NCBI GenBank assembly: GCA_951406725.2 | Contig: OX597814.1 | Coordinates: forward strand, 82,212,001-82,276,000 | DNA from: Octopus vulgaris | Taxonomy: Eukaryota | Direction of reading: 5' to 3' | DNA: 64,000 nucleotides | Made by a program: the position numbers and the translations under genes | The notes under the pieces: model-generated | The model's database searches: none | The model's input: the letters and a program-made list of their open reading frames with translations, nothing else | Told to the model about the DNA's origin: nothing | Shown: positions 7,323 to 58,802 of the stretch, in pieces | Layout: each line of letters begins with the position of its first letter | How positions within the stretch are numbered: the stretch's first letter is position 1

Positions 7323-7369
7323 TGTCAGTAAACAGGTCGCAGTTTCAAAGCGACGAAAATATTTTGACA
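7323..7369 (+). ncRNA. Minimal hammerhead variant with G3-C8 core
   Basis: TGTCA-GTAAACA-G-GTCGC(loop)GCGAC-GAA-AATATT-T-TGACA. The sister arm (minus, about 6349-6385) starts TGTCA-GTG, suggesting ancestral GUGAACA. Confidence 0.58.
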
Positions 7370-8318
7370 TAAATGAAAATTAAATGTTGAAGTGAAACTA
7401 ACGGGTTTTATGTGTTCTTGAATGGCTTACAAATATCTTCTACGCTGCAACTGTGTGTGTGTGTGCGTGTGCATGCATATATATATATATATATATATAT
7501 ATATATATATATATACAAATATTTATATATATGCATATTAGTATATATATATATATATGTTTATATATATATATATATATATATATATATATATATATAT
7601 ATATATATATATATATATATATATAATATATAAACATATATATATATATACACTTATATATACATATATATAATTATATGTACATACATACATTCATATA
7701 TACTTATTTATACACACACACACACACACACACACACACATATATATAATATATATATATATCATATATATATATATATATATATATATATATATATATA
7801 TATATATATATATATATATATATATATATATATATATATATATATATATATATATATATATACATCACACCTTAAGCTTCAGACCCTGGGGTAAACGAAA
7901 ACCGACCAAATTATCCAGTCATATGGTTTTTAAAAAAACAAGGTGTCAGCTAAAAGATTTACTGGAAGATCTTTGCCAAGTGTAAACCTTATACCAATGG
8001 GAGTGGTAAGTGCTGTCTTTGTGATATGGAATGATGGCTCATCTGGAAAAGTATATTTTGCCATGAAACAAAAATGTTGCTATCGATCTATTTTATCCAA
8101 GGTGGGCACTGCTTACCTTGCCTACCTAGACGGCACGTCCCTGATATACACTTATATATACAAACATACATACAAACATACATACATACATACATACATA
8201 CATATATATATATATATATATATATATATACATACATACATACATACATACATACATACATACATACATACATACATACATACACACACACACACACACA
8301 CATATATATACATACATG

Positions 8319-9720
8319 TATCTAATATATATAAATTACAGTATGTGTGTATACAATGGCTAACGCATACATTTCCACAATTCTCAACCGATTTTCATCA
8401 AACTTTACATACACATTACTTATGTTCCAAGGATGGTCATGCACTATAACATTTTGCCCAGAGCTCCCGCGTAAATGGACATAGTTTTTGTATGTAGGGT
8501 CTTCCATACTTTTTAGCTAGTCAGGAATTTCCAAAACATGTTGTTTAATGTCAAGAAAATTACCACATTCATACTATTTTATGGTTGAACTTCTTCGGGG
8601 TTCAAAAAGATATAATGATTACCTAAGTGGAGTTAGCTCATTGGTTTGACAGAAACATATATGTAGGTTCTTCTTATGTTTTTTCTTTAACTTTTTGGGG
8701 CTTTCAACTTCCAATTTATTTGTAATATTTTTAAAGACAAACGTCATCTTTCTATAACATGCAAATAAATCACTAATTACATCCATTTATTCTCCATTTT
8801 CTTCTTATTTTTCCCTCTATATTAATAATTTCAATAATCCTAAACATATACAAATGACTTTGCCATTATATGATACGGATTGAACCAGTTGAATACCTTG
8901 GATTATATAATCCCTAATGAGGACTTAACTTCCTCGAATTAACTACAGATGTATATATATATACTTACACACACACACACACACACACACACACACACAC
9001 ACACACACATATATATATATATATATATATATATATATTCATACTTATATACATGTATATATTTACATATATACATATATACATTTATATATATTTTTTT
9101 TCATACATATATCTATACATGCATACATATATACACACACACACATATATATATATATATATATATATATATATATATATATATATATATATGCTCAATT
9201 GAGGATGTAGCTGCCCATTACATATAAACAGTAAGAAAAATATAGGAGAAATGAGATATCATGGACCATTGCTGAGGTGTTTGCAAATGCAGAAACTAAA
9301 CTAATCTTTCAGCATCTTACCATTATTATTAAAACAATCATGATAAAAAACAATTTTTGCCTGAATTTGTTAGTGACTAAACTTGTGTTCTTGAAGAAAG
9401 AACATAACTCCATAGTTTATATGAAATCTGTGGCAATAAGAATGTACAAAATCTGAAAATTTACAGATTGAAACGACAGACTTATGTTCCAAGGATGGTC
9501 ATGCACTATAACATTTTCCCCAGAGCTCCCGCGTAAATGGACGTAAATGGGCATAGTTTTTGTATGTAGGGTCTTCCATACTTTTTAGCCAGTCAGGAAT
9601 TTCCAAAACATGGTAGCAGATAGAAATAACCACTAAATGTCCAATCAGGAAGAGAAAACATACAGACATATATGCATTCTTACATACATAATAACACAGG
9701 CGCACTGGGCTACGTAACAA
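8319..9720 (+). mobile_element. Possible Helitron-like non-autonomous element with an ~120 bp direct repeat
   Basis: Start TCTAATATATATAAA...CCGATTTTCATCAAACTTT resembles the element ending at 40411. Segment 8419-8540 recurs at 9481-9612. The 3' end is degenerate. Confidence 0.4.
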
Positions 9721-9889
9721 CATATATAGATAACGTTCTCGAAATGATGCGGTTCTCCAAAACTGAAGTAGACTGACACAAAACTTTCATATCCTATCGA
9801 CTGGTGGTACAATGAAGGTTTACAAGATATTTCAAACGTTTTCGATTTCAGTTTCCTGATGTAAGCATCTGTACACAATCACATGGACA

Positions 9890-10218
9890 CATGGTATGCA
9901 TTGATACTCCGTCGGTTACGACGACGAGGTTTCTAGGTGATCTGATCAACGGAACAACCTGCTCGTGGAATTAACGTGCAAGTGGCTGAGCACTCCACAG
10001 ACACACAGACACGCATTCCTTTAAGGTGGTTTTCAGGGATATTCAGTGTGACACTAATTGTGACAAAGCTGAAATACAGGTGCTACTCATTTTTTGCTAG
10101 CTGAGTGAACTAGAACAACGTGAAATAAAGTGTCTTGCTCAAGAACACAACGCTCCACCAGCTATTGAACTCACGACCTTACTATCGTGAGCCGAGTAGC
10201 CTAACTCCTTAGCCATAC
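9890..10218 (-). mobile_element. Family B SINE with a different 3' tail
   Basis: Same head and core as the 5412-5746 copy; unrelated 3' half. Confidence 0.75.
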
Positions 10219-57000: not shown

Positions 57001-57100
57001 TTTGTCCTGTTACTGAGTGTTTGCAGTAACAGGACAAAGATCCCGTTCCTGAGAGACTTTGTTGCATGCAATCAAGCCATATGCATAGCACTTACAGAAA
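54001..57100 (-). mobile_element. CR1-group (CR1/L2-like) LINE, 5'-truncated, young
   Basis: APE endonuclease + RT ORF, short 3' UTR with a stem-loop, (ATCA)n tail at 54001-54021, TA-rich microsatellite on both flanks. Confidence 0.92.
54090..57023 (-). CDS. LINE ORF2 (APE endonuclease + reverse transcriptase), lacking the extreme N-terminus
   Basis: APE motifs IALTETHL, GGVAMY, YRPP, GDFNLP, LDLCFT, SDH. RT motifs YRPISLTS, QHGFRPGRSC, YLDFAKAFD, GVPQG, YADD, DLG. No stop or frameshift over about 975 codons. The first 16 aa of the listed ORF come from the fold-back arm. Confidence 0.92.
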   Translation of the reverse strand, partial: QTLSNRTKIPFLRDFVACNQAICIALTETHLKPDIADAELHIPQYAVLRTDRKERSHGGVAMYIREDLTPQVLLSYSNSVCDTLIVHIRQLDVVVCATYRPPDAPSHVGKFEDCLIKIEEILTTLEQHIGVLLMGDFNLPNVRWPEGLSLPGMTRCERGQARSLLNLINTLCMEQVILQPTRAGNTLDLCFTNDMDLIHNVKVTPTLLSDHNMIELTMYGPKESTDMQPTRNPQNLSSLNYHKANWKQIEKEILKQNWPKCLSSPDIDVKLQQFMSVMQAICYKCVPERKATVHKNKIPRERKILMRRRTKFSNRLNKQIESSEKSRLKIKLLEIEKCLQLSHEKERADKEAWAIENIKSNPRAFYRYAKETATVHCRIGSLLEKDGTLTGKPMRVSEILNEQFKSVFTPPLGHLQITNPTDFFTTADIKSEAATIDYIDIKEDDVTKAIDEMKTDSATGRDGFPAILLKACKRVLARPLQFLFQSFLAAGKLPGKLKEGKICPIHKGGSRAEAKNYRPISLTSHISKVMERIVRRKLITFLEENDLLPDTQHGFRPGRSCLTQLLQHYDWVLKRLLNHSNVEVIYLDFAKAFDKVDHGMICHKLRDLNIVGKLGEWLHDFLKDRSQVVVANGATSINTQIVSGVPQGIVLGPLLFIMALSDMPSATQRATITSYADDTKVSQAIQNPEDTKHLQCELDEIYKWAEKNSMQFNAGKFQALYYQHAKLNAIPNEYTGPGGIAIPEAQSVRDLGIHMSDDATFHVHVAKLTMKCRRLAGWILRTFRTREQETMMVLWKTLVLSHFDYCSQLWSPSSVKLITELEAIQRSYTKKIASMQNVSYWERLKRLKLYSLERRRERYAIIYIWKILEGSVLNFGIESYANARTGRHCVVPRTPNLPSRCRTRFCDSLGFRGPQLFNILPKNLRDLHGVDTDVFKMKLDLFLSGVPDEPTSRQEGQMRAAASNSLMHQIAVARKPP

Positions 57101-57298
57101 GTAAGTATATATATATATATATATATATATATATATATATATATATATATATATAATATGAGGGGTTTAGTTCACTGGTGATCTAAACGAATAGGTAAGC
57201 TGTGTAAATGCTATAATTGATCTTCCGTTAGGTTCCAAGTTCATAGCTGAGGCTGGAGCTAAAGATCCGTAGTAGAGTACCCAGTTAGCAGGTATATA

Positions 57299-57760
57299 TC
57301 AGAAGAAAAAGGACAACAACAACCAAGGCAGGACGCGTATCTCAAGTCAGTTATAATATTTAATTTGAGTAAGTGAATTTGAAGTAATTAATTAATTAAT
57401 TAGTTAACTTGATTAATTAGTTAACTTTATTCTCCTGTCTGTATTCTATCTACTGTTTTAGTCTTTATTCTCCTGTCTGTATTCTTCTATCTACTGCTTT
57501 ACACTTTATTCTTCTATCTATTATTTCATTTCTTTATAAACTGTGAATTCCCTGTCTAGAACTTTCATACACAATCACTTTGTCTCTGATGATGGGATAC
57601 CCAGTGTATGGAGATGCTAAACTATCACTTGGGATATCCCAGGAACATCTGTAAGACATCTAATAATTAATTAATTACCTCAAATTCACCTTTAATTAAA
57701 TATTCTAAATAACTTGAGATACTCATCCTGCCTTCTTTGTTGTTGTCCTTTTTCCTCTGT
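57299..57760 (+). mobile_element. Penelope-like 3' remnant with ~100 bp inverted arms around a hammerhead
   Basis: 57299-57403 is the reverse complement of 57661-57760; hammerhead at 57581. Confidence 0.7.
57581..57658 (+). ncRNA. Type I hammerhead ribozyme motif (Penelope-like, one core substitution)
   Basis: TGTCT-CTGATGA-TGGGATA...TATCCCA-GGAA-CATCTG-TA-AGACA; stem I and the base of stem II pair perfectly. Confidence 0.75.
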
Positions 57761-58680
57761 ACTTAATGTGTATTTTTTTTATAATTGAAAGCCACGCAAC
57801 CTTGTCCACAGTAAGTTCTTACGTTTATATATAATTTCTGCGATTCCACACTCTGTTTTCTTTCTTTCTCTCTATTCCTCTGTAATCCTCTATATTTTCC
57901 TTTTCTCCCACTCACTCTTTGTCTTTCTTTCATTCCCTACTATCTTTCGTTCCTTCTCCCTTCTCCTCACTCTCTTTGTTTCTTTCCCTCATCCTCTCTC
58001 TCGTCCTCTTTTCTTTCCCTCATCCTCTCTCCTGTCTCCTCTCCATTCTGCCTGTTGATCACACGTGATTATAGGCCTTTTTTCTCGCCTCTGTCTTTTT
58101 TGTATGCGACGTCCAACTAGCTGGACGTCATTTCCCTCTTCTCTCGCCTCTCGACATTTATTTTCTCTTCTACTATTTTCTTCTCTTCTATTTATTCTAT
58201 ATCCTTTCAAAATTTCTCCCAGGCGTTACCCATTACAATTCGTCTTGGCCTAACGGCCCTTAATGTTTGTCTTCGTCTGTGCTTACTCTGTACGTCCACT
58301 CTGTTGTTTGTTTGTTCGTTCGAAACCCTAATTATCCACAAATTTATATTTTAAAATTTCTGGATGTTGCTGTATTATGAAGTATTTCTATCTTGTCGTT
58401 AAAAGCACGAAATGGATAGTAATAAACAGTCGACAACTGATGAGCGAGTTATCTTTTTTGGTATTTTGTCCTATACTTTTCTTTCGTGTGTTTACGTATT
58501 TGTTACTCGTTGGTGATGTCCTGTACTTTATATGTATATAAACTTACATGGAAATGGATGCATGGCGCTCAGTCATATAATAATATAAATAACATATATA
58601 TATATATTCAAATGTGTGTGTGTTTTGTATATTTTATATTTATATTTATATTTATTATTATAACTTAACTTTTTTACTTT

Positions 58681-58802
58681 ATAATATCTGACGAAACCTA
58701 GAGATATATACAAGTACCTCATGTTCATTACCTCAATCCACTTAAGTAATATAGGCAGAATGAGGTATTTTTATCTATTGGCTGAAACAGCTGTAAGTTA
58801 TT
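58681..58802 (+). ncRNA. Type I hammerhead ribozyme motif, long stem II, decayed stem I
   Basis: CTGACGA at 58688, imperfect stem II including TACCTCAT/ATGAGGTA, then GAAA-CAGCTG-TA at 58784-58795. Confidence 0.62.

What the first reader, a model, noticed from the sequence alone, without database searches (positions are those of the whole stretch)
7323..58802. Four dispersed hammerhead ribozyme motifs showing three different 3-8 core pairs
Seen: four otherwise dissimilar elements have the order stem I / 7-nt core / stem II / GAAA / short palindromic stem III / UH / stem I. They are 57581 (CUGAUGA), 58688 (CUGACGA), 7323 (GUAAACA, sister arm GUG) and 14404 minus (UUGAAAA), so positions 3 and 8 covary C-G, G-C, U-A. 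The two variant cores also share an extra G before stem II. Known: hammerhead positions 3 and 8 pair in the active fold, and Penelope-like elements carry minimal type I hammerheads with palindromic stem III that can act as dimers. Inference: this genome hosts several ribozyme-bearing non-autonomous retroelement families that CUGANGA-only searches would partly miss. The copies here may be inactive through mutation.
Basis: partly seen in the sequence, partly recalled or inferred. Interest (0 to 1): 0.75.

Follow-up and report, generated by a model that had tools for sequence, protein, structure and literature searches.

The report
Swapped-core hammerheads in Penelope-like retroelements
The four motifs are decayed copies of hammerhead-type RNA motifs from four abundant repeat families; two belong to a group of Penelope-like jumping genes in which one core base pair reads C-G, U-A or G-C in different families yet always stays paired, which suggests these RNAs likely still cut themselves, although cutting has not been tested.

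Summary
All four motifs are real and each is one copy of a dispersed family with over a thousand first-look candidates in this octopus-like genome. The swapped cores are family majorities: G3-C8 in 69 of 81 family-A copies, U3-A8 in 97 of 102 family-B copies. I traced A and B to their coding parents, sister Penelope-like elements (PLEs, 54% identical proteins), so they are truncated ends of autonomous elements rather than separate non-autonomous families. A third, very young sister (E) has C3-G8. In 13 lineages of this clade, 10 from metagenome contigs, positions 3 and 8 always pair (7 C-G, 5 U-A, 1 G-C) and a G always follows position 9. PLE hammerheads, U3-A8 and an extra core base are published; a natural G3-C8 core I did not find in nine searches, only as a partly active lab mutant. 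Cleavage is untested and copy ends do not pile at the cut site. This scan noted the G3-C8 core before, elsewhere in this genome and in two others.

The parts
7323..7369 (+). Family A hammerhead, G3-C8 core, extra G after A9, palindrome AAUAUU, predicted cut between 7364 and 7365; this copy has G5A
7131..7454 (+). Family A sense arm: AC-rich 3' UTR remnant, branch-point-like and acceptor-like sequence (inferred from the sequence) just before the hammerhead, 5' UTR and first codons of the ORF
6212..6454 (-). Family A inverted arm with deleted hammerhead core, ending in the ~55-nt tail that encodes the ORF start
6461..7120 (-). 3' fragment of a non-LTR retrotransposon with a restriction-like endonuclease motif (label from recall, no Pfam hit), lying between the two A arms
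14366..14402 (-). Family B hammerhead, U3-A8 core, extra G, palindrome AAUU, 3-bp stem I; all core bases intact, one stem II mismatch
14212..14407 (-). Family B 5'-truncated copy: hammerhead, 5' UTR, ORF start with tail, ending in a TA-rich target
57581..57658 (+). Family C hammerhead, canonical C3-G8 core, long stem II; this copy has A13G
57293..57758 (+). Family C element with a short inverted arm (57293-57423); PLE-like layout, coding parent not found
58681..58801 (+). Family D hammerhead, canonical C3-G8 core, about 90-nt stem-loop II; this copy has changes in stems I and II
58583..59018 (+). Family D element; no inverted arms in 25 of 25 loci, coding parent not found

Best explanation
Motifs A and B are hammerhead motifs in the terminal repeats (pLTRs) of two sister Penelope-like retrotransposons, and the pair between core positions 3 and 8 has been exchanged several times in this clade without being broken, likely because the RNA is still selected to fold into the catalytic shape and cut itself. 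Shown: each motif lies 0.3-1.3 kb behind an RT plus C-terminal GIY-YIG reading frame and 57-101 nt before the start codon of the next tandem unit; short copies end in a fixed tail that is the start of that reading frame. Inferred: the element is transcribed as a tandem or read-through RNA; reverse transcription starts inside the ORF start (tail) and usually stops early, often with an inversion, giving thousands of short hammerhead-bearing copies; most insertions are copied from uncut RNA; slow cleavage after U17, probably by two copies pairing through the short palindrome, would free the downstream unit as a monomer RNA beginning just before its start codon. C and D are canonical-core hammerheads of other, probably Penelope-type, families.
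For: Parents: U3-A8 motif behind the ORF in 19 of 30 loci picked by the B endonuclease, G3-C8 motif in 27 of 30 loci picked by the A endonuclease; proteins 54% identical; tree (A,(B,E)) with 100/100 support. Family E has intact 1311-1312-aa frames in pLTR-ORF-pLTR layout, and its ORF start matches the A and B tail peptides. Covariation: 13 of 13 lineages pair at 3-8 (7 C-G, 5 U-A, 1 G-C), 0 of 500 shuffles reach it, slid controls show no two-sided change; on the tree at least three well-supported separate double changes (A; B against E; L365 against L364, L366, L382). Core and stems conserved between A subfamilies. The A subfamily linked to ORFs is young (median 98% DNA identity, 28 copies) and all 29 matching motifs read GUGAACAG; an intact copy folds into stems I and II as minimum-energy structure (z -3.0). 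The engineered C3G/G8C swap partly restores cleavage in a PLE hammerhead (PMC11167929, passages) and is the only rescuing double mutant of that motif in a full pairwise scan (PMC9901934, passages).
Against: No cleavage assay and no raw RNA reads. Copy 5' ends do not pile at the cut: within 4 nt of it in 2 of 30 A and 3 of 30 B copies, while 21 of 30 A and 16 of 30 B copies run 9 nt or more upstream. Palindromes are weak: self-duplex -0.2 kcal/mol for A, +2.2 for B; B stem I is 3 bp and absent from the minimum-energy fold of one of two parent-linked copies. Families E and L363 have C at the normally invariant position 9. An extra G after A9 was reported harmful in a viroid hammerhead (De la Pena and Flores 2001, recalled; only the citation was seen). 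Hammerhead mutants do not affect PLE insertion in vitro and no RNA ends were seen at the site in Anolis; minimal PLE hammerheads cleave poorly in vitro (PMC4209133). Five of the ten metagenome motifs were picked by eye, 7 of 18 inspected loci gave no intact motif, and the shuffle control ignores relatedness. Inverted arms would bury the motif in a long hairpin in many short copies.
Confidence: 0.72

Rival explanations
1. The hammerhead fold is kept for a role other than cleavage, such as binding by the element's protein, positioning reverse transcription, or regulating the adjacent splice acceptor and start codon.
For: Most insertions come from uncut RNA; cleavage is dispensable in vitro; C9 in E and L363 and the invariant extra G depart from the catalytic consensus; an acceptor-like AG lies 12-25 nt before the core in A and B.
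Against: The 3-8 pair belongs to the catalytically active conformation, and U4, G5, A6, G12-A14 are kept in all lineages except one decayed copy; a purely structural role does not obviously need these.
Confidence: 0.2
2. The motifs are dead relics; the swapped pairs are founder mutations of master copies that spread neutrally.
For: Window copies carry inactivating-type changes; only 52 of 81 A and 74 of 102 B copies keep all core bases; each family stems from few masters.
Against: Neutral drift would not give two-sided changes repeatedly with no unpaired state in 13 lineages, nor spare core and stems between subfamilies; G3-C8 is fixed in a young family with long open frames.
Confidence: 0.06
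3. The motifs are chance matches of a loose pattern in AT-rich repeat DNA.
For: A relaxed descriptor gives 5.3 chance hits per shuffled window against 8 observed; Rfam finds no hammerhead.
Against: Family majorities restore complete motifs at the position known for PLE hammerheads.
Confidence: 0.02

Closest known systems
Minimal type I hammerheads in pLTRs of metazoan Penelope-like elements (Cervera and de la Pena 2014, PMC4209133; read: main text parts 1-2 of 4, supplement file 2 parts 1-2 of 3; file 1 not searchable)
   Same: Type I order, short palindromic stem III, unpaired base between 9 and 10.1, G10.1-C11.1, position in the pLTR, intron end next to stem I as in Drosophila Penelope; U3-A8 in Schistosoma Cercyon elements, one with the same UUGAAAA core as family B.
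   Different: No G3-C8 among the aligned examples I could read; their consensus extra base is A, C or U (G in one example), here G in 13 of 13 lineages; C9 in two lineages; three Watson-Crick states within one clade.
Natural U3-A8 hammerheads (Perreault et al. 2011, PMC3088659; read: passages and the core-variation section)
   Same: Natural compensatory change at 3-8.
   Different: That section names only C-G to U-A; figure 5 and supplements were not seen.
Poseidon element PAc of Anolis (Frangieh et al. 2024, PMC11167929; read: passages)
   Same: Hammerhead next to the ORF start, tail formed by internal RT start inside the ORF, AT-rich targets, uncut RNA as template.
   Different: G3-C8 there is an engineered double mutant with partial activity; here it is the natural state of a recently amplified family.
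C-terminal EN+ PLE clades Neptune and Nematis (Craig et al. 2021, PMC8557442; read: passages)
   Same: RT, CX2-5CxxC linker, C-terminal GIY-YIG with CCHH, pLTRs, inverted 5' copies, tails, TA targets.
   Different: RT motif A to B distance is 127-133 aa against 59 in a Neptune-type element of this genome, an insertion at the IFD position that the paper ties to N-terminal EN+ elements and some Coprina; the DKG motif reads DKS.
Animal non-LTR retrozymes (bioRxiv 10.64898/2026.07.22.740005; read: abstract, outline, one passage)
   Same: Short non-coding hammerhead repeats derived from PLE pLTRs.
   Different: The window copies are dispersed truncated or inverted insertions, not tandem arrays.

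Membership tests
Type I hammerhead ribozyme | Three stems around the core in type I order | tested here: met
   Stems I and II predicted in intact copies; stem III only as a 4-8 nt palindrome
Type I hammerhead ribozyme | Literal consensus C3 and G8 (CUGANGA) | tested here: not met
   A is G3-C8, B is U3-A8; met for C, D, E
Type I hammerhead ribozyme | Watson-Crick pair between 3 and 8 | tested here: met
   13 of 13 lineages
Type I hammerhead ribozyme | U4 G5 A6, A9, G12 A13 A14, A15.1-U16.1, H17 | tested here: met
   Family majorities of A-D; not met by window copies A (G5A) and C (A13G), nor at position 9 by E and L363
Type I hammerhead ribozyme | Site-specific self-cleavage after position 17 | not testable with these tools
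   No assay; only assembled contigs were available
Type I hammerhead ribozyme | Match to an Rfam hammerhead model | tested here: not met
   No hammerhead family listed
EN+ Penelope-like element (families A, B) | PLE-type RT with GIY-YIG endonuclease in one frame | tested here: met
   Motifs read in L283, L354, L463; Pfam RVT_1 and GIY_YIG_2 only weak, E about 0.01
EN+ Penelope-like element (families A, B) | pLTR with hammerhead, inverted 5' copies, tail, TA-rich target | tested here: met
   Inverted arms in 5 of 28 A and 8 of 30 B loci; tail equals ORF start; full pLTR-ORF-pLTR seen for E and L368, not for A or B
EN+ Penelope-like element (families A, B) | Retained spliceosomal intron in the pLTR | tested here: inconclusive
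   Donor-like and acceptor-like sequences present; no splice joint in contigs of 4 runs
Neptune or Nematis clade | CX2-5CxxC linker and CCHH endonuclease | tested here: met
   Read in L283, L354
Neptune or Nematis clade | No insertion in fingers between RT3(A) and RT4(B) | tested here: not met
   127-133 aa in 19 of 19 measurable clade proteins against 59 aa in L141
Neptune or Nematis clade | Placement among reference PLE RTs | not tested
   No reference set was on hand; only one Neptune-type outgroup on a long branch
Naiad or Chlamys | N-terminal GIY-YIG endonuclease | tested here: not met
   Endonuclease is C-terminal
EN+ Penelope-like element (families C, D) | Linked RT-EN reading frame | tested here: inconclusive
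   No consistent link in 25 + 25 loci of about 3 kb; C has inverted arms in 9 of 25, D in 0 of 25

The most novel reading that the evidence does not exclude
A widespread, unnamed clade of Penelope-like elements (C-terminal endonuclease plus a 70-aa insertion in the RT fingers) carries its own hammerhead subtype in which an invariant G after position 9 remodels the core so that the 3-8 pair and even A9 can change freely; the natural G3-C8 form cleaves in vivo, showing that PLE hammerheads are working ribozymes under selection and that CUGANGA searches miss a large share of animal ribozymes.
Probability: 0.3. Interest if true: 0.7.

Novelty: new variant of a known kind. Interest (0 to 1): 0.48.

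Why it matters
Whether the minimal hammerheads of Penelope-like elements do anything is open: they cleave poorly in vitro and are dispensable for insertion in the one reconstituted system. Repeated compensatory exchange of a pair that belongs to the catalytic fold, among homologous elements, is genetic evidence of selection on that fold, and three sister families in one genome (C-G, U-A, G-C), two of them recently amplified, give ready-made natural substrates for a test. Descriptor and Rfam searches miss these motifs, so ribozyme counts in invertebrate genomes are too low.

Tried and rejected
Rfam scans found only microsatellite noise; the whole-window repeat search was swamped by microsatellites. 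The PLE frame adjoining an A tail in L017 is a different, young Neptune-type family with its own hammerhead, not the parent; the Nematis-like fragment near a B copy in L176 has a canonical-type motif and is not the parent either. Naiad link rejected: the endonuclease is C-terminal. Long open frames behind tails were microsatellite read-through. Protein searches with the tail peptide and with the endonuclease alone found nothing. No RNA holder listed; contigs of 4 guessed-RNA runs cover ORF and hammerhead but show no joints and cannot show ends; no read-level test was obtained for family B. The pile of A 5' ends at -45 is at least partly an alignment artefact of subfamily differences. A first subfamily test that included non-homologous upstream columns was replaced. 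The first hammerhead alignment had wrong coordinates for E and was replaced. Removing the putative B intron in silico gives a more stable long stem (-18.0 against -7.6 kcal/mol), but U-rich with A-rich pairing is cheap, so I do not count it. Lunse et al. 2017 on PLE hammerhead variants is not held and may bear on novelty.
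Full report
Setting. The window is C1:82212001-82276000 of a 2.80-Gb, 227-contig genome, rich in microsatellites. A protein named from Octopus vulgaris (P0153) reads almost the same as the family E frame found here, so I call the genome octopus-like.

Observation. Only A passes a strict descriptor (1 observed, 0 in 40 shuffles); a relaxed descriptor has a chance background of 5.3 per window. 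Each motif is a copy of a dispersed family: first-look candidates 2466 (A), 1430 (B), 1331 (C), 2013 (D), 40 scored each; the short tail peptides give 12,822 (A) and 28,932 (B) candidates. These are not copy numbers. In copies anchored on flanking sequence the 3-8 pair is G-C in 69 of 81 (A), U-A in 97 of 102 (B), C-G in 19 of 24 (C) and 15 of 16 (D); the base after A9 is G in 75 of 81 and 95 of 102, but C/U in C and A in D. These samples come from best-scoring hits and include some loci picked by queries that cover the core, so they lean towards well-kept copies. The window's A copy has G5A, C has A13G, D has damaged stems; B keeps all core bases.

Anatomy. A and B copies are 200-300 nt, often with an inverted arm (5 of 28 and 8 of 30 loci), and end at a fixed point followed by TA-rich DNA. 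Their last 55 nt translate alike. Walking upstream through AC-rich UTR reached the C-terminus of a GIY-YIG endonuclease. Searching with it, the B motif lay 277-1076 nt behind the frame in 19 of 30 loci and the A motif 884-1285 nt behind it in 27 of 30. The two proteins are 54% identical. The A-linked subfamily is young: median 98% DNA identity over 28 copies, open frames to 839 aa; B is older (95%). A third sister, E, has intact 1311-1312-aa frames, 99.5-100% identical in 4 of 4 compared copies, flanked by two pLTRs, with core CUGAUGC plus G (C3-G8, C9); its frame starts with the peptide seen in the A and B tails, and its 3' copy ends at the same point. The tail is therefore the start of the reading frame, as shown for Anolis Poseidon (PMC11167929). 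The predicted cut lies 57 (A), 73 (B) and 101 nt (E) before the start codon (counted).

The clade. 238 representative proteins match at E up to 1e-30 and 229 at E up to 1e-20 in the second library, including a sea cucumber protein. The distance from RT motif A to B is 127-133 aa in all 19 measurable clade proteins and 59 aa in a Neptune-type element of this genome. Craig et al. 2021 (PMC8557442, passages) describe canonical C-terminal EN+ PLEs as having no such insertion; I did not see their supplements and did not place the clade among references, so 'unnamed clade' is a lead only.

Covariation. A metagenome scan returned 80 loci. I inspected the DNA behind the frame in 18 of them; 11 (10 distinct) had a recognisable motif, one (L397) a decayed one, six none, mostly for lack of downstream sequence. 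Five were found by a script that did not require 3-8 pairing, five by eye. With A, B and E this gives 13 lineages: 7 C-G, 5 U-A, 1 G-C, none unpaired; U4, G5, A6 and the two G after position 9 are invariant. No shuffle of 500 reaches this, but that control ignores relatedness. The tree groups (A,(B,E)) at 100 and puts U-A lineage L365 inside a C-G group (100, 90), so at least three separate two-sided changes are well supported; deeper nodes are weak. Between five A subfamilies 1 of 38 core and stem columns differs against 25 of 111 others (p = 0.005). C and D share no sequence with this clade and no parent was found for them.

How it likely works. See Best explanation. Shown: position, linkage, tail identity, covariation. 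Inferred: transcription as tandem RNA, internal RT start, cleavage, dimer. Against a large role of cleavage in making templates, copies picked by their downstream peptide end within 4 nt of the cut in only 2 of 30 (A) and 3 of 30 (B) cases. Eight of 30 B copies end 35-44 nt upstream, at the acceptor-like site before stem I; this is unexplained. The palindromes are weak, so activity is probably low or needs help, as reported for other minimal PLE hammerheads.

What is known. PLE hammerheads, the extra base and U3-A8 are in Cervera and de la Pena 2014; natural U3-A8 also in Perreault 2011. G3-C8 appears as an engineered variant in PMC11167929, PMC9901934 and PMC3884650 (passages). Nine full-text searches showed no natural G3-C8 hammerhead in what I read; notation varies, I opened only some of the listed papers, Lunse et al. 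2017 was not available, and unseen figures and supplements may hold it. The review PMC6765202 was read in passages. Earlier notes of this scan report the G3-C8 core in this genome and two others, and one claims A3-U8 as well, which I did not meet; they are not independent support.

Verdict. Real, and a new variant of a known kind. Interest 0.48.

Noticed in passing
L141-L144 (G000 C8, C13, C10, C7): A young Neptune-type PLE family (150 listed copies at 95-100% protein identity, many frames over 1000 aa) carries a minimal hammerhead whose core reads CUGUUGA, an A6U variant, in its pLTRs.
   Followed up: partly
L463:1629-1679 and 6217-6267; L363:2489-2539: Family E and metagenome locus L363 have C at the normally invariant position 9, followed by the clade's extra G; all 17 E-type motifs seen keep it.
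   Followed up: partly
L463:1763-5698: The family E protein has a low-complexity Asn/Ser-rich insert of about 250 aa in its N-terminal part, absent from A.
   Followed up: no
L283, L354, L463 and relatives: About 70-aa insertion between RT motifs A and B in PLEs with a C-terminal endonuclease; possibly an unnamed PLE clade.
   Followed up: partly
window 6461-7120 (-): 3' end of a restriction-endonuclease-type LINE joined to (ACAT)n inside family A; the same junction occurs in L015, and in L177 without family A, pointing to a microsatellite target.
   Followed up: partly
window 54093-57071 (-): 993-aa open frame with AP endonuclease and RT domains, a well-kept LINE.
   Followed up: no
L002, L011, L012, L016, L022: A subfamily of A copies sits in tandem arrays of a 300-400 nt non-coding unit with a recurring 12-nt junction.
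   Followed up: no
L253-L280, B 3' UTR: A U-rich tract before a donor-like site about 450 nt upstream is complementary to the A-rich stretch after the cut; splicing could extend the 3-bp stem I.
   Followed up: partly
window 12077-12766, 33069-33346, 42361-42727: Tandem duplications with periods 345, 60 and 184 nt.
   Followed up: no
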